Positions 2,918-37,495 of a DNA stretch of 38,967 bases are shown one piece after another. Source of the DNA: a virus (lineage: Duplodnaviria; Caudoviricetes); IMG/VR virus record IMGVR_UViG_3300032303_000677, positions 1-38,967 of that record. One strand, given 5' to 3'. Each line of letters starts with the position of its first letter. The stretch's first letter is position 1. The notes below the pieces were generated by a model. It ran no database searches. It saw nothing but the letters and a program-made list of their open reading frames with translations, and was not told where the DNA came from. Both the position numbers and the translations under genes were made by a program.

Positions 2918-5050
2918 ATGCCACTCAAGAAAATAATATTCAAATCAGGAGTAAATCGGGAAAACACCCGTTATACAACTGAGGGCGGCTGGTACGAATG
3001 CGACAAGATTCGTTTTCGTCAAGGTACACCTGAGAAAATTGGTGGCTGGTTTCAAATATCAAGCAACACATTCCTTGGCGTATGCAGAGCGCTGTGGAAC
3101 TGGATTACTTTAGGAAGTTTAAACGCCCTTGCTGTAGGTACAAACCTCAAATACTACATTGAGAACGGTGGCGTTTACTATGACATCACGCCTTTGCGTT
3201 ATGCCGCTTCATCAACAAGCCTATCCAATCCTTTTGAAGTATTTAACACTCTTAAAACGGTAACAGTTACTTGGGCGGGGTCAAACCTTTCTACTGGAGA
3301 TGTGGTCAACATCTCTGGATGTACCGTTGCCGTTGGCGGAATTCCTGCCGCAGATTTCAATAAACAGTTCACCGTAACAAGGATAGGCACAAATACTTTT
3401 CAAATTACTGTGGCTACAGCGGCAACATCTTCCACCACTGGTGGCGGAACGGTAGCAGTTTCTTTGTACAAATACACAGAAAGGTTGACCAACCCTTTTC
3501 AGTGCTACCTTAATTCAACACTAATCACCGTTACAGATGCCGCTCATGGTGCTATTACCAATGACTTTGTAGACTTTACTTCTACCAGTACGTTTTATGG
3601 AGTAACCATAACTGGCTGGTATCAAATTGTTAGCGTTGTTGATGCCAATACCTACACTATTAATGCTGCTACACAAGCCTCACAAAATGCGTCATCCCAA
3701 GGTGGAACGGTAACGGCTCAGTATCAGATTAATACTGGACCTGAAGTTGCCGTGCCTTTAACTGGATGGGGCGCTGGTACATGGGGTTCTGGTACATGGG
3801 GAGTTGGAACGGCAGTTGCTCAAGACTTAAGAGTTTGGTCTCAATCTAACTTTGGCGAAAACCTTGTGTTTGCTCCACGTGGTGGAGGCATTTACTATTG
3901 GGTAGCAACAAATGGCGTTACAACTGCTGGCTTTAATATTGCCACCATCTATGGCGCTTCAGATGTGCCAACCATTCAAAACTACGTAGCCATTTCAGAT
4001 GCATCACGTTTTGTGTTTGCATTTGGATGTAACGACTATGGCTCCGCTGTCCAAGACCCCATGCTGATTCGCTGGTCAGACCAAGAATCCGTTTCTAATT
4101 GGACTCCAGATGCAACCAATCAGGCTGGTAGTCTGCGCCTTTCTCATGGCTCTTACATTGTAACTGCCATGCAGGTTCGTCAAGAAATTTTGGTTTGGAC
4201 TGATTCAACTGTCTATTCCCTTCAATATTTGGGAGCGCCAGCGGTCTGGGGTTCTCAATTGCTGGGAGATAACATTTCCCTTGTGGGACAAAACGCTACC
4301 GCATTGGCATCAAGCATTGTGTACTGGATGGGACGAGACAAGTTCTATAAATATGATGGTAGCGTTAGCACTCTAAGTTGCGACTTACGACAATTTGTTT
4401 ACGGCAACATCAATCTTTCTCAAGCCTCTCAATTCTTTGCCAGCACAAATGAAGGCTTTAACGAGGTGTGGTTCTTCTATTGCTCCGCAGATAGCATGGT
4501 AATTGACACCTACGTGGTTTACAACTACTTGGAGCAGATTTGGTATTACGGCTACCTTGGACGTACTGCATGGCTGGATACTGGTTTGCGTAACTATCCT
4601 TTGGCGGCAACCTATGCCGATAACATTGTGTTCCATGAGTATGGTGTTGATGACGGAACAGCCGTCCCCGTCAGCGCAATTGACTCCTACATCGTATCTT
4701 CACAATTTGACATTGATGATGGTCACAACTTTGGATTTGTTTGGAGGATTCTTCCTGACTTAACATTCCGTGGGTCTACTAGTAGTAACCCTAATGTGAC
4801 TATGACCCTGTATCCATTGCAAAACTCAGGCTCTGGTTACAACGACCCTCTATCTGAAGGCGGTAGCGCATATGCCACAGTTACTAGAACCTCTGTTGTA
4901 AACGTGGAAGAATTTACAGGAACAATTTATGTTCGGGTGCGTGGAAGACAGATGGCGTTTAAGGTTGAAAACAATAACCTTGGCGACCAATGGCAACTAG
5001 GCGCTCCTCGTATTGACATCCGTCCTGACGGCAGAAGGGGCAACACGTGA
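2918..5050 (+). CDS. Tail nozzle / DNA stabilisation protein (P22 gp10 / T7 gp12-like position), with two inserted beta-rich repeat domains
   Basis: MPLKKIIFKSGVNRE..GGWYECDKIRFRQG.PEKIGGW start, IRWSDQE and RVRGRQ motifs of podovirus tail proteins; duplicated LxNPF..TVT modules and GWG repeats. Confidence 0.75.
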   Translation: MPLKKIIFKSGVNRENTRYTTEGGWYECDKIRFRQGTPEKIGGWFQISSNTFLGVCRALWNWITLGSLNALAVGTNLKYYIENGGVYYDITPLRYAASSTSLSNPFEVFNTLKTVTVTWAGSNLSTGDVVNISGCTVAVGGIPAADFNKQFTVTRIGTNTFQITVATAATSSTTGGGTVAVSLYKYTERLTNPFQCYLNSTLITVTDAAHGAITNDFVDFTSTSTFYGVTITGWYQIVSVVDANTYTINAATQASQNASSQGGTVTAQYQINTGPEVAVPLTGWGAGTWGSGTWGVGTAVAQDLRVWSQSNFGENLVFAPRGGGIYYWVATNGVTTAGFNIATIYGASDVPTIQNYVAISDASRFVFAFGCNDYGSAVQDPMLIRWSDQESVSNWTPDATNQAGSLRLSHGSYIVTAMQVRQEILVWTDSTVYSLQYLGAPAVWGSQLLGDNISLVGQNATALASSIVYWMGRDKFYKYDGSVSTLSCDLRQFVYGNINLSQASQFFASTNEGFNEVWFFYCSADSMVIDTYVVYNYLEQIWYYGYLGRTAWLDTGLRNYPLAATYADNIVFHEYGVDDGTAVPVSAIDSYIVSSQFDIDDGHNFGFVWRILPDLTFRGSTSSNPNVTMTLYPLQNSGSGYNDPLSEGGSAYATVTRTSVVNVEEFTGTIYVRVRGRQMAFKVENNNLGDQWQLGAPRIDIRPDGRRGNT

Positions 5051-5364
5051 ACATTCAAGCACCTGCCACCCCTAACTTACCACTACCGCAAGAGCAATTT
5101 AGCAAGTTATATTTAAACCAACTAACTAACGTATTGCGCCTGTACTTTAATCAAGAAAACAGTGTCCTATCTGCACTGATTAATGAACTTCCAACCAACT
5201 TAGTTTACACGGTCAGCACTCTTCCAAGCGCCAGCGCTTCTGGTGTGGGATACAGGGCATTTGTAACTGATGCCACAGTAACAACTTTTGCCTCTACGGT
5301 TGCAGGAGGAGGAGCCAATAAAGTTCCCGTCTATTCGGATGGAACCAATTGGAAAATTGGATGA
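5047..5364 (+). CDS. Small tail protein (needle/plug-like)
   Basis: GTGA overlap with the nozzle gene; coiled-coil N-terminus and YTVSTLPSA..RAFVTDA..PVYSDGTNWKIG tail-fibre-like C-terminus. Confidence 0.6.
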   Translation: MNIQAPATPNLPLPQEQFSKLYLNQLTNVLRLYFNQENSVLSALINELPTNLVYTVSTLPSASASGVGYRAFVTDATVTTFASTVAGGGANKVPVYSDGTNWKIG

Positions 5365-5407
5365 TGATTGGTACACTAACGTTCGTGTCATCACTATAAG
5401 GATAAAC

Positions 5408-5695
5408 ATGGACTTTATTGAACTTTTTAACAAGGTGGCACGGGTGGTAAAGCCAGCCCACCACACTTACGTCCCCATTGAAACGCTAGACGATAACCTA
5501 CAAGATACTGGTCTGGATAGCATGGACGGCATGATGATGTGCATCTATTTTTGCGACATCTACGGCATCCCCGATGAGATTGGCAAGGAGATGACGTTTA
5601 AATCGGCTAGGGAGTGCTGGGACTTCATCCAACTACACAAGACCAAAGAACCTTCTGGCTCCGCTGAAGAAGCCATCAAAGGGGTGGATTGGTGA
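5408..5695 (+). CDS. Acyl carrier protein (ACP)
   Basis: 95-aa acidic protein from ATG 5408 (AAGGA RBS) with the phosphopantetheine attachment motif LQDTGLDSMD and the YGI..E helix III region. Confidence 0.85.
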   Translation: MDFIELFNKVARVVKPAHHTYVPIETLDDNLQDTGLDSMDGMMMCIYFCDIYGIPDEIGKEMTFKSARECWDFIQLHKTKEPSGSAEEAIKGVDW

Positions 5696-6813
5696 TTTAC
5701 CTTACCGAGACCCGCACGGCATGCACCGAAACACATGAACTAATTGACGAGTTAAAGCACTTTCCTCAAAGGGTTCACTGGTTTCCAGAGACCTATAAGG
5801 GCAAAGATACGGGGATGATTTATGCGCCTCATCGTCTGGCTGAAAAAGTTTTGGATGGAGAACTACTCCGCAAACTACGGGAAAATCCTTGTAGGACTGC
5901 TTTTATTCTTGCTTCTGGAAATTCTCATTTTGCAGGGATAGAACCTGTAGACCTAGGGAAAACCCGACTAACTTACACCTATAAGTTTTTGCCTATGGCG
6001 TTAACTCAAGTGTACGCAGGGCGGGTAGCCAGTTCGTGTGGCGTTACAGACCACGTAGTGACCGATGCGTCAGCCTGTGCGTCAAGCCTCAAAGTGATGA
6101 TGGATGTCTACAACCTAGTTAAGTTGTATGGCATGGAGCGAGTCATTGTGCTGGGCGTGGAAGATGCAGTTACCAACGCAGTCTTGAACTTCTTTGGTGA
6201 TTCAAAAGCCGTGTTAACAGCCAAAGATGATGATGCTGGCATATTGCCATCAGCCTTTGACGAGAAGAACTATGGGTTCCACGTAGGTCAAGGCGCTGTC
6301 TTTGCCGTCTTTGAAACCGAGCAAAGCATGAAATTGACTGGGTTCCAGCCTAAAGCCAGACTGATGGGGGCGTATACATCAGGCGAAGACTCAACCAACG
6401 CTATTGGTCAAAGGGAAGACGGGCAAGGATTTAAACGAGCCATTCAAGGTGCGTTGTATATGTCCCAAGTTCAAAGTTCTCAAGTGCGAACGGTTAAGAC
6501 TCATGGCACTGGAACGAAGTCAAATAATCTTGCAGAAAAACACGCACTTACTAGCATTTTGAACGATTTTGTGGCAACATCGTTTAAACAAAGAATTGGA
6601 CACACTATGGGTGCAAGCGGATTGCTTGAAACCGTATTGTTGTTGGATAATATCAAAAACGGTTTTGTGCCAGCAATTGCCAACCGTACAGACGAAGACA
6701 AGGTTTTTCTTAGCAAGCCAGCCCCAGCAGAAAAGGGCGGTTTGATTTTGAGCCTTGCGGCTGGAATGGGCAATGTGTATTCCGCTGCAATTTTTAAGGA
6801 TGCACAATGCTAG
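5692..6813 (+). CDS. Beta-ketoacyl-ACP synthase (FabB/FabF-like thiolase fold)
   Basis: Cys-His-His triad motifs SACASS, KTHGTGT and KQRIGHTMGASG; GQGA (canonical GEGA) and C-terminal AAGMGN (canonical SFGFGG); GTG start overlaps the ACP stop (GTGA). Confidence 0.92.
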   Translation: MIYLTETRTACTETHELIDELKHFPQRVHWFPETYKGKDTGMIYAPHRLAEKVLDGELLRKLRENPCRTAFILASGNSHFAGIEPVDLGKTRLTYTYKFLPMALTQVYAGRVASSCGVTDHVVTDASACASSLKVMMDVYNLVKLYGMERVIVLGVEDAVTNAVLNFFGDSKAVLTAKDDDAGILPSAFDEKNYGFHVGQGAVFAVFETEQSMKLTGFQPKARLMGAYTSGEDSTNAIGQREDGQGFKRAIQGALYMSQVQSSQVRTVKTHGTGTKSNNLAEKHALTSILNDFVATSFKQRIGHTMGASGLLETVLLLDNIKNGFVPAIANRTDEDKVFLSKPAPAEKGGLILSLAAGMGNVYSAAIFKDAQC

Positions 6814-7322
6814 TTGACAGTAAGAAAAAGATGCTAGACCCGTCTGAGATTATTCTTGAGGCGACAAAAGAAACAAAGTCTAAGTATTCTCCTGACCAAG
6901 TGCTTGCCGCAATTATGAGCGAGGCTCATAGCGCTGGGGCTATTCTTATGCGCCAAGGCAACACCCTGTTCATTGTTCATCCAGCAAAAGACCGCACCGC
7001 TTGGTTCCGTGCTTTAAACGCAGACACCGCTCAAAATTATTTAAAAAACAGTCTTGATTACACCAAAGCCATGTATATGGCTGGTTTTGATGTCATGGTC
7101 ACAGAATTTGAAGACCCAACATTGTTGAGTCTTTTTAAATACGTTCAAAAAAACCGTGCAAAAATTAATCCTGATGTAGATGGCAAGCCAACAATGGGCT
7201 ATGCGGTTCAAAGAGTTAAAAGCAAGGGCTACGTTCCATTACCTCCCGAAACAGCAAAACCAAAAGACGATGGTTACCGTGTAACTACCGTGCTTGGACC
7301 AAGACGTGAAGGACAAATGTAA
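6807..7322 (+). CDS. Hypothetical protein, possible GNAT-like acyltransferase (T7 gp13-equivalent position)
   Basis: 171-aa alpha/beta protein overlapping the KAS stop and abutting the first ejection gene (TAATG). The fold call is inferred from size and synteny only. Confidence 0.4.
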   Translation: MLVDSKKKMLDPSEIILEATKETKSKYSPDQVLAAIMSEAHSAGAILMRQGNTLFIVHPAKDRTAWFRALNADTAQNYLKNSLDYTKAMYMAGFDVMVTEFEDPTLLSLFKYVQKNRAKINPDVDGKPTMGYAVQRVKSKGYVPLPPETAKPKDDGYRVTTVLGPRREGQM

Positions 7323-9904
7323 TGGGTGCAGTAGCAGATGTAGTTGAAGACGTAGTCGGTGGTGTAGTCAATGCCGTAGGCGATGTTGCCGAAGCAGTTG
7401 TACATGCGGCTGGTGACGTTGTTCAAGCCGTAGGCGATACCGCCACAAAAGTTGTAGAGACAGCCGTCAACGACCCAATTGGAACAATAGCCAAGGTAGC
7501 CGCAGTAGCCACAGGACAGTTTGAACTGCTTCCCGTTATCTCTGCCGTTGACGTTGTTGCTCACGGAGGCAACCTAGAACAAGCGTTAACAAGTGCCGCA
7601 GTATCTTATGTTGCACCGCAAGTTGGTGGTGCTATTGGTAGCGAATTGGCTGATACCGCTTTTGGTCAAGCCTTGACAGATATTGGAACAAATACTGGTA
7701 TTGAAAGTCTTCCATCCGCTGTATATCGTGGGCTAGGTTCTGCTGCCACACAAACTGCCGCTGGCGTTTTGCAAGGTCAAGACGTTGGCGATGCATTAAC
7801 AGGCGGTATAACCGCTGGTATTGGTTCTGGCGTAGGCTCTGCCGTAACTGCCGAGGCGGATACTGGCGGTGCTGGAACAAATACCTTAGACAAAATTCTT
7901 GGAAACACCGCTGGTGGAGTAACTACCGCTGCTTTGCGTGGCAAAGATGCGTACCTTGCTGGTGTAAACGCTGCTGCTGGCAGCATTACTGGTGCTGGTA
8001 TCAATGCAGCCGGGTCTGGTATAGCCAGTTTAAACGCTGATGCAGGACCAACCAAGACAGCAGAAGAAACCAAATCTACAGAAACAAAACCATCTGGAAC
8101 TCTACTAGCCAGCGCTAATGAAGTTGTATCTGACTCAGGGTTAACACCTACACAAGAAGCCATAAAAAATATGAAGGGTGAAGTAGAAGACCAAACGCCC
8201 GAACAAAAGGCTATGGTTGACCAACTTATCAAGGCTTTATATCCAGAGGAAGCCAAGAAAGAAGAAGAAGCCAAAAGAGCGGAAGCCGCCGCTACTGGAA
8301 ATCTTATTGATGACGATGGGCGTATAACCAATTTTGCTATTAATCCAGAGACTGGCGACTTATATAAGCCTCTGGGCGTTAACGAATTTGGCGATAAATT
8401 TGCTCCTGTTTTGCCACGTCAAGATTACGTTGGTAGCGAGACAATGATTAGCCCCAATGTTGTTTCCGCTATTTTGGGCGACCAAGAGGGCGACTTCCCA
8501 CAACAAATTGAAAACCGTGCAGACGGTTCAACTGTTGTCACCGAGTTTGATGGCACTCAACGTATTTTTAACGTTGATGGAACTGTTGAAACCATTGGTG
8601 CTGACGGAATCAAAACAACCGAAACCAATGAGGGCGCAAAAACCATTACTTACGATGACGGCTCAACCGTCACCATTAATCCTGATGGCACAGTAACTTC
8701 TACCGAAGCAACTGATACGCCATATACAGGCGAAACAGAAAAGACTTCCTCAAACAATGATTTGAGCAAACTCTCATCTGCGCTGCTGGGCGGTGCGACT
8801 GCTGGAGGCGCTAGAAACGTTAGCGGAACAGGCGGTACTGGCGTTAGCAGAAAAGGCACTACTGGCGGCTTTAACCTTGGAAACGCTGGTAGTCTTTTAG
8901 GTGGCGCAGCCGCAATTGGTGGCGCTGCTGCTCTGGCAAACAGTTTAAACGACACTGGAACTAATTCAGGTGGTGGTTTTTCACCATCTTTAAATGGAAT
9001 GAGTTGGGATATAACCGACCCAGCGGAGATTGAAAATGCTCGTGCTTATGGACAACATATGATTAGCCCCATTTATAAAGCGGAAGGTGGCTTACTGAGC
9101 CTGACTCCCCCCCCTTACCTGCAATCTCCTATTCAAAACCAGCAATACCCTGTTGGCGATATTCCTCGTCAAGACGCTGGCTCTCAACCTCAACAAGCGT
9201 ACGGTCAAATGCCGTACACACAGCCTGACCAAAATCAGTATGGTCAGATGAAGCCTCAATTCATTCAACCAACTATTGATAGTCAAAATCATTTAAACCT
9301 AAATCAGCCAAGAAATCAAAATCAAAATTACAACGCTGATTACACCAACTCAGTCAACATGTTTGCTGGTGGTGGGATGCCTATTGCTATGAATGATGGC
9401 GGTTTGCCTTCTATTCAGACAGACGAAGCAATTGTTGCCAATGCCGCCCGTAAGTATGGTCTTGGAGATGATGTTCGTGTTCTTAACAAGATTGAGGCTT
9501 TGGTAAATCAAGGCATGAACCCAGATGATGCCGCTCGGATTGTGGCTGGTTCAGCCAAGCCAACCCAAATGGCTATGGGCGCTCCTATGAGCAGACCAAT
9601 GGCAAGTGGCGGCATCTCTAGCCTTGGTCACTATTCTGATGGTGGACGCATGTTGAAAGGTCCGGGAGATGGAATGTCTGATGACATCCCCGCCACCATT
9701 GCTAACAAACAACCAGCACGTCTTGCAAACGAAGAGTTTGTGATTCCTGCCGATGTAGTTTCTCACCTTGGCAATGGCTCATCTGAGGCTGGCGCAAAGG
9801 TTTTATATGACATGATGGCAAAAGTTCGTAAGGCACGAACAGGAAACTCCAAGCAAGGAAAACAAATCCATGCTGAGAAGTTCATGCCTAAAATGAGGGG
9901 TTAA
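7322..9904 (+). CDS. Internal virion / ejection protein
   Basis: Met-Gly start, amphipathic V/A/D repeats, long Gly/Ala-rich region, C-terminal GPGDGMSDDIPA..ARLANEEFV..DVV domain seen in podophage core proteins. Confidence 0.65.
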   Translation: MGAVADVVEDVVGGVVNAVGDVAEAVVHAAGDVVQAVGDTATKVVETAVNDPIGTIAKVAAVATGQFELLPVISAVDVVAHGGNLEQALTSAAVSYVAPQVGGAIGSELADTAFGQALTDIGTNTGIESLPSAVYRGLGSAATQTAAGVLQGQDVGDALTGGITAGIGSGVGSAVTAEADTGGAGTNTLDKILGNTAGGVTTAALRGKDAYLAGVNAAAGSITGAGINAAGSGIASLNADAGPTKTAEETKSTETKPSGTLLASANEVVSDSGLTPTQEAIKNMKGEVEDQTPEQKAMVDQLIKALYPEEAKKEEEAKRAEAAATGNLIDDDGRITNFAINPETGDLYKPLGVNEFGDKFAPVLPRQDYVGSETMISPNVVSAILGDQEGDFPQQIENRADGSTVVTEFDGTQRIFNVDGTVETIGADGIKTTETNEGAKTITYDDGSTVTINPDGTVTSTEATDTPYTGETEKTSSNNDLSKLSSALLGGATAGGARNVSGTGGTGVSRKGTTGGFNLGNAGSLLGGAAAIGGAAALANSLNDTGTNSGGGFSPSLNGMSWDITDPAEIENARAYGQHMISPIYKAEGGLLSLTPPPYLQSPIQNQQYPVGDIPRQDAGSQPQQAYGQMPYTQPDQNQYGQMKPQFIQPTIDSQNHLNLNQPRNQNQNYNADYTNSVNMFAGGGMPIAMNDGGLPSIQTDEAIVANAARKYGLGDDVRVLNKIEALVNQGMNPDDAARIVAGSAKPTQMAMGAPMSRPMASGGISSLGHYSDGGRMLKGPGDGMSDDIPATIANKQPARLANEEFVIPADVVSHLGNGSSEAGAKVLYDMMAKVRKARTGNSKQGKQIHAEKFMPKMRG

Positions 9905-9905
9905 T

Positions 9906-11192
9906 ATGGGATTATTTACTTCCACCAGTTTGAATCAAACGCCTGATACTTCCACACAGGGAACTGTTACCCCGTACGCACAACCGTACGTTTCAAATCT
10001 TTTAGACAAGAGTCAAGCGTTACTCAATGCGCCAACTCCCGCTTATACAGGGCAGTTGACGGCTGGTTACGCTCCATTGCAAGAGCAAGCATGGCAAGGA
10101 CTGAGCAATTTAACTCTTCCCGCATCGCTGCAAAATGCTGGAGCCAATTTAAACGAGATTAGTCAAAAACAACAGGCGCTGACTTACGACCCAAATACGA
10201 TTACAGCAAACCAATTTGACGCTACTCAGGCTCAGAAGTACATGAATCCGTACATTCAAGCCTCTTTAGACCCACAATTGGCGGCTCTTCAGCGCCAGCA
10301 AGCCATCAATCAACAGGCTGACTTGGCTAAATTGACACAGGCTGGAGCATTTGGCGGTTCACGTCAGGCTATTTTGCAAGCCCAAAACAATGAAAACTTG
10401 TTGCGTCAACAGGGTCAATTGATTGGTTCTGGTTACAACCAAGCCTATCAAAATGCGGCTACTCAGTTTAACGCTGATGCGGCACGTGACTTACAGGCTC
10501 AACAACTTAACCAAGCGGCAAAACAATTTGGCGCTACCTATGGTTTGCAAGGATTGCAAGCGGCTACTCAGGCTCAGACTGCGGCTGCAAATGCTGGCGC
10601 TCAAGGCGCTCAATATGGTTTGGCAAATCTGCAAGCATTGAATACTGCTGGCGGTCAACAACAAGCGCTTGACCAACAGGCGCTCAATGCTCAATACAAC
10701 GAGTACTTGCGCCAGTTGAAGTTCCCGCAAGAGATGATTGCAATGAACAGAAACGTATTGGCTGGTCTTCCAATGACCACAACCAATACCTACTCTGCCG
10801 CCAAGAGTATTGCTCAACAGTTGGCTGGAGGCGTGTCTGGTGCTGCGGGTGTTATGAAAGACCTTAAATCTATGGGCTACACCCCTGACAAAATTGCGGC
10901 TTATGTTAAGAGCATGTTTACAGACTCTAAAGGTAATCCGACTCTTACTGACGAACAAATCAAACAAGAGATTGATAGGGTTACCGCTGAGAGCGAGGCT
11001 CAAAGAGCGCCTCCAGCAGACGCTCGAGACAATGGCGATGGAACGTTTACACGCTCTAGTGACGGCATTCTTGAGACCTACGACAACAAAGGCAATTTAA
11101 TTGGCGCAGAGCGTGACCCATCAACGATTAGCGATTATGTTAATCCAGAACCTCCCCCGCCACCAGAAGATTTAAGTAATTTTGAAGGCTAA
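9906..11192 (+). CDS. DNA pilot / ejection protein
   Basis: MGLFTS start; Gln/Ala-rich helices; YMNPY and AGAFGGSR motifs typical of podophage pilot proteins. Confidence 0.7.
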   Translation: MGLFTSTSLNQTPDTSTQGTVTPYAQPYVSNLLDKSQALLNAPTPAYTGQLTAGYAPLQEQAWQGLSNLTLPASLQNAGANLNEISQKQQALTYDPNTITANQFDATQAQKYMNPYIQASLDPQLAALQRQQAINQQADLAKLTQAGAFGGSRQAILQAQNNENLLRQQGQLIGSGYNQAYQNAATQFNADAARDLQAQQLNQAAKQFGATYGLQGLQAATQAQTAAANAGAQGAQYGLANLQALNTAGGQQQALDQQALNAQYNEYLRQLKFPQEMIAMNRNVLAGLPMTTTNTYSAAKSIAQQLAGGVSGAAGVMKDLKSMGYTPDKIAAYVKSMFTDSKGNPTLTDEQIKQEIDRVTAESEAQRAPPADARDNGDGTFTRSSDGILETYDNKGNLIGAERDPSTISDYVNPEPPPPPEDLSNFEG

Positions 11193-11194
11193 TT

Positions 11195-12892
11195 ATGTTC
11201 AATCTAATTGAAACACAACAAGCATTAAAGGGTTTGCCATTACCTGACGTAATGAAGTATGCCAACGGGAACAACCCAGAGGTTCCTTCATACTTGGCGT
11301 TGTCTGAACTTCAACGCAGAAAGCAATTGGAAGATACCCAATCGGCTTTTGTCGGTCAGCAACCTACCGTTAAAGAACAAATTGAAAGTGGCTTGACTGC
11401 ATTGCCACAGGGTCAAGTCAATCCTACGGCAGAACCTACTGGTATGGTTAACCCAACCGCTATGCCGCCTCAATTGGCTCCTAGTCCCGTTGCTCCTAAC
11501 AAATCAATGATGACTGCCGCTCCCGCTGGAGTGCAACCCAATGCTGCACCTCTTGTTCCAAGAATGGCAGAAGGCGGTCTATCCAATTTGCCTTTACCGC
11601 ACATGTTTCGTCAGACTTCATATGCTGACGGTGGCATTGTCCACTTTGACGGCGGTGGCATGGGTTCTGACGGCATTCCAGACCAAAGTGATGTGGGCAA
11701 CAAATCTCCCGGTTATGGTTTAACTGTTGGCAATTTTTGGGACGTACTTAGTGCACTTGGTGGAGAAACTGAGTGGCAAAAGGCTGAACGGTTTAAACGC
11801 AACAAGATTCAATACGAGCCACCACAAGGTTTTGACAAAGAAGGCTTGCCAATTAAGAAGACTCCTGCGCCAACCCCTGCATCAGCCCCTGTGGTTGAGC
11901 AAAAGGTTGAACCCACCAAAGTTCCAGCAGACCCCAATAAACAAGCATCCAATACATCTTCAGCACAATTGAAGAAAGAACCTGCCGCTCCAGCAGTTCC
12001 TGCCGCTCCAGCAGTTCCTATGCTGAACCCAGACCAGTTTAAAGCGCCAGCAGAATTGTCTGATGCACAATTGCTTGAACGTAGAAAATCCTTGGAAAAA
12101 TTGGCTGGTGTTTCACAAGACCCAATGGCTGACATCAAACAACGCTACGCCAAGTTGGAAGGGAAACGTGCGGCTCAAGAAGCCGAAGACCCTTCAGACC
12201 GTTTGATTGCACGTCTTGCCGCTTTCTCAGGAGCCAAGGCTACCGAAGGTTTGGGCGCTCAATTAGGCGAAAGCGCTATTGCTGGCGCTAAGATGCAAAA
12301 AGAACAAGAGGCTTTGCGTGATAAACAGGCTACCGAGATGAACGCCTTGCAAATGAATATTGCCAAGGAAGAAGATGCTCGTAAGCGTGGTGACGTAAGT
12401 GCCGTTGAATCTGCACGTGCCGCTCAAGAAAAGACCAAGCAAGATTTGTTGAAGTTGGGTATTGACGCAAGCAATGCGACTGCCAACCAAATCAATGCAG
12501 CCGCTAACACTTTGTCATCTCAGGCTCAGATGCTCCGTGCTCGTCACGAAGCCTCTACTAGCAAGACTCCTGCTGAGATTCAGATGATTGAGCGGGTAAT
12601 GAAAGAGAAGGGCGTTGGGTTTGTTGAAGCCGCTAATATGCTCCAAGGCATCAAGGGTACTAACGCCCTTCTTAAAGATGCTCAATCCAAATGGGACTCC
12701 AGTATGGCGTTGCGTATGGAATGGGAGAAGAAAGGCGGTTATCCTGCATACTTGGCAAGTCAAGGTATCACAATGCCCGGTGGCGGCGGCAATCAAACCC
12801 CTTCCGCTGGCGCTCCAAAAGAAGGAGACAAGGCAACATCTAACTCTGGCAAGCCAATCATATTTAAGAACGGGAAATGGGAGTACCAGTAA
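11195..12892 (+). CDS. Internal virion / ejection protein
   Basis: Pro-rich and coiled-coil protein with MAEGG/YADGG motifs; C-terminal IIFKNGKWEY; lies between the pilot gene and the giant gene. Confidence 0.6.
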   Translation: MFNLIETQQALKGLPLPDVMKYANGNNPEVPSYLALSELQRRKQLEDTQSAFVGQQPTVKEQIESGLTALPQGQVNPTAEPTGMVNPTAMPPQLAPSPVAPNKSMMTAAPAGVQPNAAPLVPRMAEGGLSNLPLPHMFRQTSYADGGIVHFDGGGMGSDGIPDQSDVGNKSPGYGLTVGNFWDVLSALGGETEWQKAERFKRNKIQYEPPQGFDKEGLPIKKTPAPTPASAPVVEQKVEPTKVPADPNKQASNTSSAQLKKEPAAPAVPAAPAVPMLNPDQFKAPAELSDAQLLERRKSLEKLAGVSQDPMADIKQRYAKLEGKRAAQEAEDPSDRLIARLAAFSGAKATEGLGAQLGESAIAGAKMQKEQEALRDKQATEMNALQMNIAKEEDARKRGDVSAVESARAAQEKTKQDLLKLGIDASNATANQINAAANTLSSQAQMLRARHEASTSKTPAEIQMIERVMKEKGVGFVEAANMLQGIKGTNALLKDAQSKWDSSMALRMEWEKKGGYPAYLASQGITMPGGGGNQTPSAGAPKEGDKATSNSGKPIIFKNGKWEYQ

Positions 12893-28161: not shown

Positions 28162-28190
28162 ATGCTAATACAACTTGGGACACTATGCAA
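28162..28190 (-). promoter_or_regulatory. Sigma70-like promoter of the recombination operon
   Basis: TTGCAT-N17-TAGCAT on the minus strand, just upstream of the AGGAGG RBS of 28137. Confidence 0.6.
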
Positions 28191-28575: not shown

Positions 28576-28618
28576 CCGACCTACTGGTCTGTTATCAGGA
28601 GGCTTAATCAAGATAAGT
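28543..28618 (-). ncRNA. Candidate antisense sRNA carrying AUUAAGCCUCCU
   Basis: Bounded by promoter TTGCAT-N18-TATCAT (28654-28625) and the terminator above; no ORF; the anti-RBS segment lies in the loop of a TTATC/GATAA stem. Confidence 0.5.
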
Positions 28619-28682
28619 GCATCTATGATACATCAGAGAACGTTACCTATGCAAATTTTTTTTCCTGTTGCATAATTAAATC

Positions 28683-28765
28683 TCTGCGGTGTCCTACGAC
28701 ATTGCGGTTGCCTCTCCATCACATGGAGTTCAAAGGGAGTGTTTAAACGCACTCTCTTTTTTTTT
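28683..28765 (+). ncRNA. Candidate three-hairpin sRNA
   Basis: CATAAT -10 at 28671; hairpins GCGGTGTC/GACATTGC and CTCCAT/ATGGAG; ends in the terminator below. Confidence 0.4.
28732..28765 (+). terminator. Intrinsic terminator
   Basis: AAAGGGAGTG/CACTCTCTTT stem followed by T9; GTTTAAAC lies in the loop. Confidence 0.8.
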
Positions 28766-28889
28766 GAGCCGGTGCCGGGTGAAGCAACACAATGTTTAAA
28801 CTTTGTAAGAGCCGCTGCCACAAAAATATTTATACGAATACACCAAACCCCTATTGCGCTCATCGTCAAATTAGATTTAACATGATGAC

Positions 28890-29090
28890 TCGCCTCTTGA
28901 TTGTCGATGCAAAACGGCAGGGTCAAGAGGCTTAATTGTCGGTACTGTGGTTAGTGCGTTAGATACCGAAAAGGGATGGCGAAGATAGAATCCCTCGCAC
29001 GAAAAGTCTGTCGGGTCGTACCGAAGCCATTGGGCGAAGTGCGTGAAGGCAGACCAGTTTAAGGCTAGGTCTGCCCTCTCCAAAGGGCAG
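28890..29090 (+). ncRNA. Candidate structured RNA / leader upstream of HNH and primase-helicase
   Basis: Stems 28892-28900/28923-28931, 28939-28945/29018-29024, 28954-28958/28996-29000, 28972-28977/28990-28995 and 29048-29055/29068-29075; promoter-like TTGCGC-N18-TAACAT at 28854-28883. Confidence 0.45.
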
Positions 29091-29125
29091 AAGATACGAT
29101 GAGTATCTAACTACTATGAGTGACT

Positions 29126-29362
29126 ATGACAACTAAAGAAAAAAGAGATTGGAAAAAAGAATATCAAACCCAACTGGCACGTGGGGATGACAAAGGGCAA
29201 CTAGAGCGCCAAAAAGCAAGGCGCTTATACGATAAGAAAGGCATAGACCGAACAGGCAAAAACATAGACCACGTTACACCCATAAAAACTGGTGGCAAGA
29301 CCACTACAGGCAACCTCAGATTGCGCTCGCCAAGAGCCAACAAATCTGACAATAAAAAATAA
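29126..29362 (+). CDS. Small HNH endonuclease
   Basis: IDHVTPIKTGG..GNLRLRSPRAN HNH motif; RDWKKEY N-terminus. Confidence 0.8.
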   Translation: MTTKEKRDWKKEYQTQLARGDDKGQLERQKARRLYDKKGIDRTGKNIDHVTPIKTGGKTTTGNLRLRSPRANKSDNKK

Positions 29363-29380
29363 TTTTCGTAGGAGGCTTAA

Positions 29381-31081
29381 TTGAATGCAGTCGCTGAACT
29401 GATTGATACGCTATACATTGACGATACGCAACGTGTCGTTTGTCCCATGTGTTCACCCGAACGCAAGAAGTTCAAACTCAAAGAACTCAAGATAGACCGC
29501 AAGCCCGAAGGCTTGGTGTACCTCTGCCATCATTGCGGAGTGTCGGGTCTCGTCCCAAACAAAAAAACTCAACAACCAATATACCGCAAGGAGCAGAATG
29601 TGATTCCATTGAAGCAATCCCCCGCCATCACCAAACTACAACCACAACACTACAGTTTTCTAAAGACACGTGGTATCTCGGAGAGGGTTGCAGATGAGAT
29701 GAAATTGTTTCCTGCCCAGAAATACTTTACTCGTTTAAACAAGGAGACAGAAGCGATTGGCTTCCCGTATTTTCGAGGTGGGGTTTATGTTTCTGCCAAG
29801 TACCGCTCGATTGAATCGAAGGACTTCACCCAAGATGCGGGTGGGGCACACGACTTCTTTGGCATCGACCACATCGACCAAACACTACCAGTAGTGATTG
29901 TCGAGGGTGAGATAGACGCATTGACTTTGATGGAGTGCGGTTTAAAGAACGTCCTGTCAGTACCAAGTGGTGCTCCAATGAAGGTCACCGATGGCAAGAT
30001 TGACGCAAGCGAAGACAAGCGATTTACTTTTGTTTGGAACGCCTTTGACATGTTGAAGAACGTGCCATACGTCACCATTGCAACCGATACAGATTCAGCG
30101 GGACAGGCTCTAGCGGAAGAATTGGCTAGGCGTATCGGCAAAGACAAGTGTCGTATCGCCAAGTTTGACTACAAGGACTTGAACGAAGTCTTCTTGGCTG
30201 AAGGTGCAGATTCAGTTAAACAAATCATTGACTCAGCCGAGCCGTATCCAGTAGCGGGTTTATCCTCCGCCAGCAAGTTTGAGGAGCGTTTAAACGACTT
30301 GTATGCGAAGGGCACAGGCAAGGGCACATCAACTGGTTACTCGAACGTTGACCAAATTTATACGGTGGCTCAAGGTCAACTCACCATCGTTACTGGTTAC
30401 CCATCGTGCGGTAAGTCAAATTTTGTTGACCAACTCATGGTGAACCTTGGCAAAACCCACGATTGGAAGTTTGCCATCTGCTCGTTTGAGAACCAACCCG
30501 AGATACACATCTCACGCCTGATGGAGATTTACAAAGAGAAAAGATTCTTTGACGGCAACAACAGAATGAGCGGACCTGAAAAACAAGAGGCGTTTAAATG
30601 GGTTGAGAACCACTTCTTGTTTCTAGATTCAGAAGGCGCTGAACCCTCATCGATTGATTCAATCCTTGAACGTGCACGAGTGGCGGTGGCTCGAACTGGT
30701 ATACGTGGTTTGGTGGTTGACCCATATAACTACATTGAAAACAAATCGGGCATGGCAGAGCACGAATTCATCTCATCGATGTTGACACGCATGCAAGCCT
30801 TTGCCAAGGCGTATGGGGTACACATTTGGTTTGTGGCTCACCCAAGCAAGATTAATCGTTCGGGCATGGAACTGCCTAGACCTGATGGCATGGCTATCTC
30901 AGGCTCGATGGCGTGGTGGGCGAAGGCTGACTGCGGTCTGACCATTCATCGCACCAAGACCAATGACGTTGAACTTGCGGTGTGGAAGTGTCGCTATCGT
31001 TGGATTGGAACTCAGGGCGAAACAACTCTTGGGTACAACAAGACAACTGGAACGTACTTTGAAAATACCGATGCGTTTTAA
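29381..31081 (+). CDS. DNA primase-helicase (T7 gp4 / Twinkle-like)
   Basis: CPMC..CHHC zinc domain, TOPRIM VIVEGEIDAL and DTD, SF4 helicase TGYPSCGKS, LVVDPYN and FVAHP; TTG start with AGGAGG RBS. Confidence 0.93.
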   Translation: MNAVAELIDTLYIDDTQRVVCPMCSPERKKFKLKELKIDRKPEGLVYLCHHCGVSGLVPNKKTQQPIYRKEQNVIPLKQSPAITKLQPQHYSFLKTRGISERVADEMKLFPAQKYFTRLNKETEAIGFPYFRGGVYVSAKYRSIESKDFTQDAGGAHDFFGIDHIDQTLPVVIVEGEIDALTLMECGLKNVLSVPSGAPMKVTDGKIDASEDKRFTFVWNAFDMLKNVPYVTIATDTDSAGQALAEELARRIGKDKCRIAKFDYKDLNEVFLAEGADSVKQIIDSAEPYPVAGLSSASKFEERLNDLYAKGTGKGTSTGYSNVDQIYTVAQGQLTIVTGYPSCGKSNFVDQLMVNLGKTHDWKFAICSFENQPEIHISRLMEIYKEKRFFDGNNRMSGPEKQEAFKWVENHFLFLDSEGAEPSSIDSILERARVAVARTGIRGLVVDPYNYIENKSGMAEHEFISSMLTRMQAFAKAYGVHIWFVAHPSKINRSGMELPRPDGMAISGSMAWWAKADCGLTIHRTKTNDVELAVWKCRYRWIGTQGETTLGYNKTTGTYFENTDAF

Positions 31082-31143
31082 AAACGGCAGGTTGTAACAG
31101 CGGAACGTTTAAACGGCTTTCCCTAAACGCAAAAATTTAGGGC

Positions 31144-31180
31144 AAAAAAAATCCCCCCAAGGCTCGCACCGAGGGGGGAT
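31144..31180 (-). terminator. Intrinsic terminator of the early operon
   Basis: ATCCCCCC/GGGGGGAT stem with a T-run on the minus strand, between convergent units. Confidence 0.8.
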
Positions 31181-31189
31181 GAACTAGTG

Positions 31190-31327
31190 TCAATTCTGTT
31201 TTCGTTCTTTAATTTCACGCTCGAGAATTTTCTCGAACAACTTCCATCGTGATGACTTGTGTCTGCCCCCATGCTTGGGGGCTTTGTTCAAAGCCTTAAC
31301 GATTGGATTGATTGGCTTGACTTTCAT
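31190..31327 (-). CDS. Small basic protein, absent from the ORF track
   Basis: MKVKPINPIVKALNKAPKHGGRHKSSRWKLFEKILEREIKERKQN (45 aa) with AAGGA RBS. Confidence 0.55.
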   Translation of the reverse strand: MKVKPINPIVKALNKAPKHGGRHKSSRWKLFEKILEREIKERKQN

Positions 31328-31348
31328 AACGCATCCTTAGTTTGATGT

Positions 31349-31681
31349 TTACTTGTTAACCTCGAACTCCCACTCGTCCATGCAGAAGTCGAGGTCGTGC
31401 AACTCAGGAACGTCTGTGCGCTCTTCAACTGTGCCATCGCTCCACGTCACCAGTACGCACCAACGCCTGATGAACTTGCGTGGTGTGTTTATCAACTTGT
31501 GGAGCAACTCGGTGTTACGTTCAACGTAGCGCAATGCACTCTTGTCTTCATCGTCAAGGTCATCAACGCATGCTTGCATGTCAGCGATTGCCTCTGCCCA
31601 TGTATCGAACGCATTGCCATCTCGATACTCACGAATCGTGTCACGTGCTGACTCATCGGTGTGAATGTAGTTTGTGCTCAT
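31349..31681 (-). CDS. Hypothetical early protein
   Basis: GGAGG RBS; acidic 110-aa ORF in the operon. Confidence 0.6.
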   Translation of the reverse strand: MSTNYIHTDESARDTIREYRDGNAFDTWAEAIADMQACVDDLDDEDKSALRYVERNTELLHKLINTPRKFIRRWCVLVTWSDGTVEERTDVPELHDLDFCMDEWEFEVNK

Positions 31682-31683
31682 GT

Positions 31684-31830
31684 TTAAACGCCCTCCGAAT
31701 ATTTTTCGCTGATGTGATGCAACAAGGGGTCAAGGTCTTTCGAGATTGAACTCTCGATGACAACGCCCAAAACTGTATAGACGATAAGAACCCAACCGTT
31801 GTCGGTGCGTAGCAATTCAATCTTGTTCAT
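31684..31830 (-). CDS. Small hypothetical early protein, absent from the ORF track
   Basis: MNKIELLRTDNGWVLIVYTVLGVVIESSISKDLDPLLHHISEKYSEGV (48 aa); AGGAG RBS, ATGA overlap. Confidence 0.55.
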   Translation of the reverse strand: MNKIELLRTDNGWVLIVYTVLGVVIESSISKDLDPLLHHISEKYSEGV

Positions 31831-32012
31831 AGAATCTCCTTGAGTAAGTGTTGAGTGAGAACCACGACTGCTTGAGCGTAGGTGTCGAACGTGTTGTCAC
31901 CGTTGGGCGAGTGCACGTACTGGTCATCACCCTCCTCGGTTTGGTACTCAACCATGTAGCCGTTGCTCGTGCTGATGACGGTGAATGATGAAACGATTTC
32001 TTCTTTGTACAT
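31827..32012 (-). CDS. Hypothetical early protein
   Basis: AGGAGGCTTT RBS; 61 aa. Confidence 0.6.
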   Translation of the reverse strand: MYKEEIVSSFTVISTSNGYMVEYQTEEGDDQYVHSPNGDNTFDTYAQAVVVLTQHLLKEIL

Positions 32013-32026
32013 AAAGCCTCCTAAAG

Positions 32027-32242
32027 TTAATGAACGATTTCACTTGATGGGTCTGTCTCATCGTAGACACGAGAGACAGTCATCACTATGTATGCAAGGA
32101 GCGATGCGGGGTCAATGCCCCCCATCACCCCCGCTCTTGCAAGCAACATGGTCAATGCGGGAATGACAATCTCCATCTGCTTGCCATTCAACGTATCGCC
32201 CATGTTGTCTAACAGTTTGTCAAAGTCCTCAACGGTGTTCAT
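32027..32242 (-). CDS. Hypothetical early protein
   Basis: Likely start MNTVEDF at 32242 (AGGAG RBS, ATGA overlap with the VWA gene). Confidence 0.55.
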   Translation of the reverse strand: MNTVEDFDKLLDNMGDTLNGKQMEIVIPALTMLLARAGVMGGIDPASLLAYIVMTVSRVYDETDPSSEIVH

Positions 32243-33042
32243 TGCAACTCCTTGAGGATTTTGTTGAACGATGCTGATGCCAAGCCGTTGATGTCTACAA
32301 CGTTCTCGCTTGAGCGAAAGCACTCCTTAACACTCGTGTGCCCAATACCGATTGCAATAATCTTGACGTTGAGTCTGTCGGCAAGACTTTGCAGATGAGC
32401 CATGTGCTTTTGGTTGTAGCCGTCAGCATCGGTGAGCAAGAACAAAATCTTGCGTTGCTCTTGACGAGTAGCCAAGTCTTCAATCGTGATACTCAGGGAT
32501 GAGTAGTCAGGCGTTGCAGACCTAGCCCATTGATGAATCGAACCCAACTTGGCTGATGCTTTCTGAATCGATTCTTTCCACGTCTTGAACGGCACGAACG
32601 TGGGTTGCTCGTGCTTGATGTTGATGTTGCCGACTGCACCAGTAGCGTTCTGATAAACGGTCTCAGCACCGCCATAAAACCCTGTGACGTTGAACGACAC
32701 GTTGGCTTTGTCCAAGATGCGAGACAACTGGATTGCCAACGCCTCGGCAGTACCGATGCGATTGTCAGAATTCATAGAACCCGAACAGTCGATGAGTATC
32801 GATACCGCTGATGCCTCTGCCTCAACGTGCACACGTTTGGCAAACACCGCAGTACTGCCACAAGCAAAGCGTGTAAACGCCTTACGGTCTAAACGCCCTG
32901 ACTCCTCGTGCGTGTTCCAACCGACCAAGTCGAGTGAACGCAAGAGTCGCAAGATGTTGGCACGAGTAGCACCAAGGTTGCTTGCCTGATGGTTGTACTG
33001 GAATGAATAGTTGCGCTCTGCATCTGCTTTGATTACGTACAT
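32239..33042 (-). CDS. VWA-domain protein (CobT C-terminal-like)
   Basis: SGRLD motif, MIDAS DCSGSM, TPD and LLTDA; IAIGIG. Confidence 0.85.
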   Translation of the reverse strand: MYVIKADAERNYSFQYNHQASNLGATRANILRLLRSLDLVGWNTHEESGRLDRKAFTRFACGSTAVFAKRVHVEAEASAVSILIDCSGSMNSDNRIGTAEALAIQLSRILDKANVSFNVTGFYGGAETVYQNATGAVGNINIKHEQPTFVPFKTWKESIQKASAKLGSIHQWARSATPDYSSLSITIEDLATRQEQRKILFLLTDADGYNQKHMAHLQSLADRLNVKIIAIGIGHTSVKECFRSSENVVDINGLASASFNKILKELQ

Positions 33043-35643: not shown

Positions 35644-36207
35644 TTAAAGAACGAAAGTGTTGCCGTCACTTGGGCACGTTGGCAGACCTTGGTCAGCCCA
35701 TGTCTTGGTGAGGCGAATGGTGTAACCGCACGATGGGCACGTGGCTTTGAGCATGCGGGTTGACTGAACCTTGCGGTCAGCATTGACGTTTAAACGAGCA
35801 TGTGGGTACTCGCCCAACGATGCAACGAGCGAACCGAACTCAGAGCGAAAGCGGTCACCAATCTTGGTTTGAGATGGGATGCCCTCTAGAGACAGTTTGC
35901 GAACGAGTCGGGGAAAGCGCCCACGATGACCATCGCCATCGGTTGCAGAGTGTGCCAACTCGTGCACCAAGATACCGAACACCTCGAAAGGGTCAGCCTC
36001 GACAGGCGAGATAAGAATCTCGTGGGTGTTGTCTGCCGATGAACGAGCAGAGTGGTGCTCACCGATGGCACGATTGAGCGAACGAGCATGACGAGAGGGA
36101 AACCCACAAGTCACACGAATTTGAGCGGGTAGCGGGTAGCCAAGCGCATCAAATACAGGACGCAATTCATCTGTGGCTTGCGTCAGCCATTCTTCACGTG
36201 ATGTCAT
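35644..36207 (-). CDS. SprT-like zinc metalloprotease with C-terminal zinc ribbon
   Basis: EILISP..LVHELAH..DGHRGRF and CPSCGY..PTCP motifs. Confidence 0.8.
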   Translation of the reverse strand: MTSREEWLTQATDELRPVFDALGYPLPAQIRVTCGFPSRHARSLNRAIGEHHSARSSADNTHEILISPVEADPFEVFGILVHELAHSATDGDGHRGRFPRLVRKLSLEGIPSQTKIGDRFRSEFGSLVASLGEYPHARLNVNADRKVQSTRMLKATCPSCGYTIRLTKTWADQGLPTCPSDGNTFVL

Positions 36208-36968: not shown

Positions 36969-36997
36969 ATGCTAGCACATGTTTAAACGTTTGGGTG
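36969..36997 (-). promoter_or_regulatory. Extended -10 promoter of the early operon
   Basis: TGcTAGCAT on the minus strand (36977-36969); GTTTAAAC lies just upstream at 36981-36988. Confidence 0.45.
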
Positions 36998-37172
36998 AAA
37001 TACTTTTATCGAAAGACCCCACGAACTTGTCGGGATTAATGCGATGAGTACTTTTTATTGAGCCGACCTCTTAAAACGCCCTACAAGCAATTTTTGGGGG
37101 TGCAAGCACCCTACCCATTGACGTGCTTGCGTTCGTGCCTTGTAGACGTTTTTCACCATTTTGGTGCATAAA

Positions 37173-37223
37173 CTATCCACAATTTTCGGTGGATAACTTT
37201 ACTTGTCCACAGGGTGTTGATAA
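37173..37223. promoter_or_regulatory. Cluster of four DnaA-box-like 9-mers
   Basis: CTATCCACA (+, 37173), TTATCCACC (-, 37188-37196), TTGTCCACA (+, 37203) and TTATCAACA (-, 37215-37223), each one mismatch from TTATCCACA. Confidence 0.65.
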
Positions 37224-37466
37224 CTAATACTGGATGTTTAAACAGGGAGACTTTGATTTGCACACCCAAGGGTGAGCAATTCAAACGAGCGAGGTTTAAA
37301 CGGGTGAGCGAGTGGCTCATGCGGTGAGCCTGTGACATCGAGCGGGGGTCAATCACGAAGTGAATCGGTCAGGCGTTGCATGTCATGGATAAGGTCATGG
37401 AGTGATGAAGTCATGTCCTAGATGTCCTGATGTTGCGAACAGTCTGCGAACAGAGAGCGAACCTTG

Positions 37467-37495
37467 TTGACATCGATTGTTTAAACGTCAACCAT
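37467..37495 (+). promoter_or_regulatory. Possible promoter for terminase small subunit
   Basis: Perfect TTGACA, 17-bp spacer containing GTTTAAAC, weak -10 AACCAT; overlapped by a GTTGAC/GTCAAC inverted repeat. Confidence 0.4.

What the first reader, a model, noticed from the sequence alone, without database searches (positions are those of the whole stretch)
3117..37486. Window-wide iterated palindrome GTTTAAAC / CGTTTAAACG (HIP1-like phenomenon in a phage)
Seen: exact GTTTAAAC starts at 3117, 6582, 8028, 8943, 11791, 13036, 14043, 14680, 17974, 18895, 20122, 20571, 20737, 22602, 22898, 23337, 24633, 25359, 26123, 27239, 28310, 28741, 28794, 29733, 30288, 31107, 31682, 33643, 35248, 35788, 36981, 37236, 37294 and 37479 (34 by eye), plus many one-mismatch copies. 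About one copy is expected from base composition (rough estimate). It is read in different frames (AFKR, RLN, a stop codon) in genes on both strands, so protein sequence does not explain it. It also lies next to or within two candidate promoters and in a terminator loop. Phages usually avoid palindromes. Inference: a positively selected site, roughly one per 1.1 kb, for a DNA-coating protein, a methylation or self mark, or a recombination or packaging signal. In-window candidate readers/writers are the AT-hook protein, the RHH protein and the methyltransferase.
Basis: partly seen in the sequence, partly recalled or inferred. Interest (0 to 1): 0.82.

Follow-up and report, generated by a model that had tools for sequence, protein, structure and literature searches.

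The report
Phage self-address read by zinc ribbon
This lake-phage genome carries 34 selected copies of the eight-letter palindrome GTTTAAAC, and across unrelated phages and plasmids the word comes, goes and changes spelling together with one small zinc-ribbon domain, which therefore likely binds it and is predicted to repress the phage's own promoters.

Summary
Confirmed: 34 exact GTTTAAAC (0.9 expected; 26 of 42 synonymous opportunities used). ORF 35644-36207(-), a SPRTN-like zinc protease with a C-terminal zinc ribbon (KxQxTRMxK..CGY..R), does.

- The word follows that zinc ribbon across cultured phages of two phyla, plasmids and integrated elements.
- It is absent on four branches that lost the motif.
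- It becomes GTGTACAC when the motif becomes Qx[KR]RH (23 copies against 0).
- It stays dense where the protease is dead or deleted and only the ribbon remains.
- In this clade it sits in the promoter of the gene's own operon (35 of 80 regions) and in the terminase promoter (38 of 80); 0 of 468 control sites do.

Best reading: an autoregulated, sequence-specific repressor with a genome-wide site array. Binding is inferred, not shown, and the role of the 26 intragenic sites is open. This scan reported the word-SprT pairing before on other genomes and gave me the lead. The residue-word switch, protease-less readers and plasmid range were tested here. Ten literature searches found no description of the pairing.

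The parts
3117..37486 (.). Array of 34 exact GTTTAAAC (starts 3117, 6582, 8028, 8943, 11791, 13036, 14043, 14680, 17974, 18895, 20122, 20571, 20737, 22602, 22898, 23337, 24633, 25359, 26123, 27239, 28310, 28741, 28794, 29733, 30288, 31107, 31682, 33643, 35248, 35788, 36981, 37236, 37294, 37479); 26 in genes
5203..32878 (.). 8 copies of the variant GTGTAAAC/GTTTACAC (starts 5203, 7962, 11045, 14742, 18620, 20517, 21598, 32871; 0.9 expected), likely second-choice sites
35644..36207 (-). 187-aa SprT-like protein (phrog_6361), first conserved gene of the early operon; inferred reader of the word
35797..36207 (-). Protease domain, residues about 1-137, HELAH plus a third His; fold nearest to SPRTN (6mdx, Z 8.1, rmsd 3.4, 98 aligned), tied within 1 Z with abylysin, selecase and Wss1
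35647..35781 (-). Reader domain, residues 143-187: basic arm KVQSTRMLK plus C4 zinc ribbon; Q148, T150, R151, K154 and R165 conserved
36969..36988 (-).
   Evidence: 35 of 80 clade regions; 0 of 468 control sites
37467..37495 (+). Predicted terS promoter TTGACA-17-AACCAT with the 37479 site inside the spacer, 6 bp after -35
   Evidence: 38 of 80 clade regions; 0 of 468 control sites
37236..37301 (.). Pair of sites 58 bp apart in the non-coding control region; 57-58 bp spacing recurs in several relatives
28732..28801 (+). Site 28741 in a terminator-like hairpin and site 28794 53 bp downstream, intergenic
31682..31689 (-). Site directly abutting the ATG of ORF 31349-31681, the same placement as 5 sites in phage Venkman
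30288..30295 (+). Intragenic site at primase codon 303, kept in 69 of 71 relatives whose protein allows it (relatives not independent)
35788..35795 (-).

Best explanation
The 34 copies of GTTTAAAC are kept by selection on the DNA and are likely binding sites for the C-terminal zinc ribbon of the phage's own SprT-like protein (35644-36207), which is predicted to repress the promoter of its own early operon and the terminase promoter and would also occupy the intragenic copies about once per kilobase. Shown: enrichment, selection, co-occurrence, co-variation of word and residues, and placement in predicted promoters. Inferred: direct binding (about 0.88), repression at the promoters (about 0.7), and that the intragenic copies extend the same repression as roadblocks or silencing points (about 0.45). 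The protein would be made in a burst when the DNA enters a new cell and then shut its own promoter once the sites are filled. The protease domain is likely an accessory, perhaps a self-cleavage switch.
For: Gene to word: 15 of 15 family records with the full gene have 16-47 sites; the complete relative G040 lacks it and has 0. Cultured phages with the Q-x-T-R motif: Venkman 34 (1.7 expected), R5C 10 (0.02), Mica 7 (0.09), Arya 7 (1.0) GTTTAAAC; Zeta1847 22, Yang 20, Bogota 36 GTGTAAAC (0.08 or less); Persinger 4, ep3 4, 4A 14, Bas97 6, Alexa 9. 44 of 46 genome loci with the gene have a site nearby. Motif lost on four tree branches, each without the word. Switch: 7 loci with Qx[KR]RH hold 23 GTGTACAC (0.37 expected) and 0 GTTTAAAC; 23 loci with Qx[TAIV]R[ML] hold 39 GTTTAAAC and 0 GTGTACAC. 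Word to gene: of 48 records picked by the word alone, 11 of 20 dense and 1 of 28 sparse carry a homologue; among records at least 83% complete, 3 of 3 and 0 of 7. Reader without protease: HExxH absent or the whole domain deleted in a very dense lineage. Promoter placement: (13 of 16 contexts). Zeta1847 has 18 of 22 sites within 45 bp of a start codon, 14% expected. Preprint 10.1101/2025.05.26.655371 reports clear plaques for Liebe, whose homologue is frameshifted, and turbid plaques for its near twin Maureen (not checked here).
Against: No binding or repression was measured. 26 of 34 sites here are intragenic and palindromic, so they have no direction, unlike stoperators. Five close relatives, two of them complete, have no tyrosine or serine integrase, so immunity is not an obvious need. 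Jilinviruses have a separate cI-like repressor. HExxH is invariant in 65 close homologues, which a pure repressor would not need. Spacing is more even than random in Bogota, Yang, R5C and the Magnetospira plasmid (P from <0.0001 to 0.02), which suggests a local role along the DNA. Exceptions: G061 (complete, no gene, 8 sites in 65 kb), L068 (no gene at the usual place, 3 sites in 7 kb), G070 (37 sites, 50% complete, no gene found), and G004 (reader only, 3 sites in 17.5 kb). The switch is one or two events on the tree. Many loci are close kin, and about a dozen of the 39 sites are one inherited in-gene site. The promoter patterns were drawn up from the same sequences.
Confidence: 0.6

Rival explanations
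1. Tethered-protease guard. The zinc ribbon reads the word, but its main job is to park an active SPRTN-like protease every 1-5 kb along the element. There it would cut host proteins that crosslink to, silence or translocate along the incoming DNA. Autoregulation only sets the dose.
For: HExxH plus third His nearly invariant in 101 diverse homologues; best fold match SPRTN; even spacing in four unrelated genomes; late-arm sites are also selected (13 of 24 opportunities); the gene is shared by phages and mobilizable plasmids, beside relaxase, coupling protein, Rep/ParA and once LPD29/30, the company of establishment genes such as ArdC (PMC7213743).
Against: Homologues without HExxH, and 55-62-aa stand-alone readers, go with the densest arrays. 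Cluster EB and YuA-like phages keep the protease without the word. HeidiAbel Bas97 has the gene and 6 sites and is reported very sensitive to restriction systems. The protease activity of ArdC was not needed for its effect.
Confidence: 0.22
2. Counting or coating. The intragenic sites act as a sink that titrates the repressor as the genome replicates, releasing the terminase promoter at high copy number, or as anchors for compacting the DNA. Their exact positions matter little.
For: Most sites are far from promoters; positions turn over among relatives while density stays near 1/kb (9 positions in primase, 11 in MoxR); the late promoter carries a site.
Against: Some single sites are strongly kept (69 of 71); even spacing elsewhere implies position matters; tight autoregulation would blunt titration (inference).
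Confidence: 0.12
3. The word is written or read by something else: a methyltransferase mark, a host protein, or a mutation or repair bias as once proposed for HIP1. The SprT-like gene only travels with it.
For: The window encodes an N6/N4 methyltransferase; G061, L068 and G070 have sites without a detected gene; the host of this phage is unknown and was not examined.
Against: G010 has 47 sites and no such methyltransferase; the same word appears in elements from several phyla whose chromosomes are not enriched (5-9 copies in 3-8 Mb, below the reversed-word control); word and reader residues change together; one-mismatch neighbours are enriched, not depleted.
Confidence: 0.06

Closest known systems
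Operator/stoperator arrays of Cluster A mycobacteriophages (PMC9283540, abstract and outline read)
   Same: One phage protein with many sites over the genome, some at promoters and many elsewhere; site sequence and protein vary together.
   Different: Stoperators are asymmetric and read by a monomer with two domains, one an HTH.
HIP1 (GCGATCGC) of cyanobacteria (PMC5861425, abstract and outline read)
   Same: 8-bp palindrome, strongly over-represented (about 38-48-fold here), inside and between genes, kept by selection.
   Different: HIP1 is a chromosome feature linked to methyltransferases. This word is confined to mobile elements, not enriched in five carrier genomes, and has a candidate reader next to it.
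SPRTN/Wss1 DNA-dependent metalloproteases, and the Cluster AZ 'SprT-like protease' (10.1101/2025.05.26.655371, section Lysogeny read)
   Same: HExxH zincin fold followed by a small zinc domain. The preprint already lists the AZ homologue among repressor candidates with a predicted C-terminal DNA-binding domain.
   Different: SPRTN is recruited to DNA-protein crosslinks; no sequence specificity is described in what I read. The preprint names no binding word and predicts a repair-like function.
ArdC of plasmid R388 (PMC7213743, passages read)
   Same: DNA-binding domain plus SPRTN-like metalloprotease domain on a mobile element; protease activity dispensable in the assay used.
   Different: [quoted passage not shown]
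KorB/KorA regulons of IncP plasmids (recalled, no call)
   Same: Plasmid-wide repressor with palindromic sites at promoters and inside genes.
   Different: KorB is a ParB/HTH protein; no homology seen or tested.

Membership tests
HIP1 | Sequence GCGATCGC or a close variant | tested here: not met
   The word is GTTTAAAC.
HIP1 | 15- to 300-fold over-representation kept by selection | tested here: met
   34 against 0.7-0.9 expected; 26 of 42 opportunities; 69 of 71 at one site.
HIP1 | Abundant over the host chromosome | tested here: inconclusive
   Not enriched in five genomes that hold related elements; this phage's own host is unknown.
HIP1 | Linked methyltransferases | tested here: inconclusive
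   No PF01555 enzyme in four site-rich relatives, one complete; other families and host enzymes not tested.
HIP1 | 10-90 kb periodicity | not tested
   Genome too short; only gap evenness was tested.
Cluster A stoperator system | Asymmetric, oriented sites | tested here: not met
   Palindrome here; the asymmetric variant lies on both strands (21/15, 6/16, 6/14).
Cluster A stoperator system | Many sites over the genome, including promoters | tested here: met
   (promoters predicted).
Cluster A stoperator system | HTH plus stoperator-domain repressor | tested here: not met
   The model shows a zincin domain and a zinc ribbon, no HTH.
Cluster A stoperator system | Temperate phage with integrase and immunity | tested here: inconclusive
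   No PF00589 or PF00239 match in 5 of 5 relatives, 2 complete; non-integrating lysogeny not excluded; immunity not testable.
Cluster A stoperator system | Bound protein stops elongating RNA polymerase | not testable with these tools
   Needs in vitro transcription.
SprT/SPRTN-like metalloprotease | HExxH with a third His ligand | tested here: met
   H82, E83, H86 and H94 invariant in 65 close and nearly invariant in 101 diverse homologues.
SprT/SPRTN-like metalloprotease | SprT fold or Pfam PF10263 | tested here: inconclusive
   6mdx Z 8.1, rmsd 3.4, 98 aligned, tied with other minigluzincins; no Pfam hit for this ORF; one homologue hits PF10263; Atlas neighbours carry it in 13-18% of members.
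SprT/SPRTN-like metalloprotease | DNA-activated proteolysis and self-cleavage | not testable with these tools
   Needs biochemistry.
ArdC | N-terminal ssDNA-binding domain before the protease domain | tested here: not met
   The protease fold starts at residue 1.
ArdC | Anti-restriction activity | not testable with these tools
   Indirect evidence against: Bas97 reported very sensitive to restriction systems.

The most novel reading that the evidence does not exclude
A portable self-address system of phages and plasmids: a 45-residue zinc ribbon with a reprogrammable two-residue code reads an 8-bp word and places an active SPRTN-like protease at kilobase intervals along its own element. This would be a sequence-targeted DNA protease in bacteria, acting as a guard or as a one-piece self-cleaving repressor, and the missing lysogeny regulator of Cluster AZ/EH phages.
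Probability: 0.28. Interest if true: 0.92.

Novelty: new variant of a known kind. Interest (0 to 1): 0.78.

Why it matters
It would add a very small sequence-specific DNA-binding domain with a natural specificity switch (Qx[TA]R[ML] for GTTTAAAC, Qx[KR]RH for GTGTACAC). The family is large (2,864 clusters at 50% identity with E up to 1e-10) and spans phages and plasmids of several phyla. It gives a concrete operator sequence and candidate for the repressor that papers on Cluster AZ and EH phages say has not been identified. It also gives a HIP1-like iterated palindrome a testable reader, in phages that grow on laboratory strains.

Tried and rejected
- Methyltransferase, RHH and AT-hook proteins as partners: they do not track the word.
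- MoxR/vWA neighbours as partners: they travel with the gene in this clade, but none is annotated beside it in the cultured phages and plasmids read.
- Codon or protein constraint: rejected.
- Host-wide signal: not seen in five carrier genomes.
- Eden's enriched TATGAACA as an alternative word for the EB-type protein: set aside, because it overlaps start codons within a longer repeat. No clear replacement word was found in four EB, two YuA-like, L263, L368 or L348 sequences.
- Homodimer prediction: no answer, score 0.14 against a mark of 0.42; used neither for nor against.
Sequence search of the PDB: nothing under E 0.09.
- A regular-expression count of sites between RBS and start codon did not discriminate, as it matched intragenic sites in the window; annotated starts were used instead.
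- Search for short stand-alone homologues returned 2 proteins, possibly contig-end fragments.
- Literature searches, none describing the word-protein pair. The library lacks most subscription journals, and no supplement was read.
Full report
Observation. The 34 coordinates are exact and far above chance. Protein constraint does not explain them. Synonymous shuffles give 1.9 against 26 in genes. 26 of 42 coding opportunities use the word, more than any other 8-bp palindrome, and Leu before Asn uses TTA in 26 of 62 cases against 93 of 845 elsewhere. Seven sites are wholly intergenic, where 7.5% of the window lies (P 0.012). The window is a 39-kb part of a podovirus-like phage with holin, endolysin, ejection proteins, primase-helicase, Erf, a MoxR/vWA pair and terS. 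It has no close cultured relative by its primase (best 32% identity). The host is unknown.

Relatives. Nearly all 80 loci found with the primase carry about one site per kb (part of the output was cut and was reprinted). Earlier notes of this scan pointed to a SprT-like zinc-ribbon gene; the window has one at 35644-36207. I tested the link myself. Of 50 family records (chosen from 160 loci, mostly the longer ones), the 15 with the full gene have 16-47 sites. One with only a 52-aa C-terminal ORF has 3 in 17.5 kb. Of 34 without a hit, 11 still have 0.4/kb or more; these are 12-69% complete, and four end before the gene's usual place. L068 is a true exception: no gene between primase and terS, 3 sites in 7 kb. 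Six long records without the gene have 0-2 sites; only G040 (complete) and G034 certainly span the early region. L016 lacks the gene at the usual place and has 0 sites. L079 has 0 GTTTAAAC and 8 GTGTAAAC.

Unrelated elements. 164 phage records and 74 plasmid records match the protein. I examined 18 phages and 5 plasmids. Twelve phages with the Q-x-T-R arm carry GTTTAAAC (Venkman 34, R5C 17 in the whole record, Alexa 8, Mica 7, Arya 7, Bas97 6, Persinger 4, ep3 4) or GTGTAAAC (Bogota 39 in the whole record, Zeta1847 22, Yang 20, 4A 13). Enrichment is modest in the jilinviruses (Arya 7 against 1.0). Four Cluster EB phages, whose arm reads KSRSGKSI, and two YuA-like phages, whose zinc ligands are gone, have 0 or 1. 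At their G+C content none is expected, so the point is the contrast with Zeta1847 and Yang at similar G+C. In bacterial assemblies, 44 of 46 loci have a site within the fetched DNA (0.02-0.7 expected each). The two without are one that lost the motif and one cut by a contig end. Many of these loci are close kin. Of 14 annotated, 8 show relaxase or coupling-protein genes. The carrier genomes are not enriched.

Two plasmids had no GTKTAAAC. Both have the arm changed to Qx[KR]RH and have GTGTACAC upstream of the gene; whole-plasmid counts are 10 (0.37 expected) and 2. A metagenome search gave five further such loci with 15 GTGTACAC and no GTTTAAAC. In all, of 37 loci, 7 of this class hold 23 and 0, and 23 of the Qx[TAIV]R[ML] class hold 0 and 39; 7 were unclassified or of another class. 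The reverse test took 48 viral records chosen by the word alone (50 sent of 78 listed loci, 2 not held). 11 of 20 dense and 1 of 28 sparse records carry a homologue; the nine dense ones without are 17-50% complete. In one very dense lineage the homologue has no HExxH or is a stand-alone 55-62-aa reader, placed at the head of an operon with the word just upstream. So the word follows the ribbon, not the protease. G061 (complete, 8 sites, no gene) and G070 (37 sites, half complete, no gene found) remain unexplained.

Structure. The model (pLDDT 90) has a zincin domain, a flexible linker and a zinc ribbon. The best matches are SPRTN, abylysin, selecase and Wss1, with Z 7.1-8.1. How so small a domain reads a palindrome is not shown; a dimer is an inference from symmetry.

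Promoters. In 13 of 16 cultured phage and plasmid contexts a site lies 16-84 bp before the start of the gene. For two I used a downstream Met, and for R5C the preceding gene; several are related. In this clade, of 80 distinct terS-to-SprT regions, 35 have a site just before an extended -10 box pointing at the SprT operon and 38 have one in the 17-bp spacer of a promoter pointing at terS. None of 468 downstream sites fits either pattern (patterns drawn from these sequences, so partly circular). Zeta1847 has 18 of 22 sites near start codons, and Venkman has 5 abutting an ATG. Varying positions relative to the promoter boxes fit repression better than activation (inference).

Mechanism. I commit to an autoregulated repressor with a genome-wide array (0.6). 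The intragenic sites are the weak step. They are selected in both arms (13 of 24 late, 13 of 18 early). They are evenly spaced in Bogota, Yang, R5C and one plasmid but not significantly in this window or G010. The clade has no integrase. A tethered-protease guard (0.22) explains the conserved active site and the spacing but not the protease-less lineage. Titration or coating (0.12) and an outside writer or reader (0.06) are weaker.

Literature, and what I saw of it. 10.1101/2025.05.26.655371: passages and the section Lysogeny; it lists the AZ homologue as a repressor candidate and reports the Liebe/Maureen difference, and mentions unshown repeats near the gene; its supplements were not read and may bear on novelty. 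PMC7302621: passages; no repressor identified for EH or Zeta1847, and no such word in the passages shown. PMC7213743 and PMC11990801: passages. PMC5861425 and PMC9283540: abstract and outline. Other papers: search listings only. Ten searches found no account of the word-protein pair. KorB is recalled. The scan's notes already report the word and the SprT-like partner on other genomes; a look-up for the switch returned nothing.

Verdict. A real feature, and a new variant of the repressor-plus-site-array kind with an undescribed reader domain. Interest 0.78.

Noticed in passing
window, whole: GGCC occurs once and CCGG 10 times (about 135 and 60 expected); GGCC is 0 in many relatives but 30-100 in others, which suggests host restriction pressure that varies within the family.
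   Followed up: no
window 5378-6813: An acyl-carrier-like ORF and a beta-ketoacyl synthase gene sit among the tail and ejection genes; also present in complete relative G010.
   Followed up: no
window 12893-22135: 3080-aa polyvalent-type protein with ART-PolyVal, DUF7178 and LPD38 domains.
   Followed up: no
window 32239-35622: MoxR/CobS-like ATPase, an HExxH peptidase-like ORF and a separate vWA ORF follow the SprT-like gene; the CobT-like part is split into two ORFs here.
   Followed up: partly
window 25953-26541: The AT-hook-like ORF overlaps the SSB ORF by 137 bases in another frame, so its true start is probably downstream of the listed TTG.
   Followed up: no
window 562-1191: Free-standing GIY-YIG homing endonuclease inserted after a tail-fibre gene.
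   Followed up: no
window 37170-37225: DnaA-box-like sequences (TTATCCACA-type, recalled motif) and an inverted repeat lie beside the 37236 site; similar sequences recur in relatives, so the site pair may border a replication origin.
   Followed up: no
L008 10990-11148 (-): Family member with only a 52-aa reader ORF, no MoxR/vWA, and 3 sites in 17.5 kb.
   Followed up: partly
L202, L225-L227 (Cluster EB phages): A repeat of about 24 bp (ATAGARRTATGAACAGCAAC-like) overlaps start codons of small genes, 7 copies in Eden.
   Followed up: partly
L246, L251, L253, L258: One alphaproteobacterial assembly holds four copies of a relaxase/coupling-protein-type element carrying the gene and the word.
   Followed up: no
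G061 (L527-L530): Complete 65-kb family member with 8 sites, all in or near the structural region, and no reader gene; possibly a recent module exchange or gene loss.
   Followed up: partly
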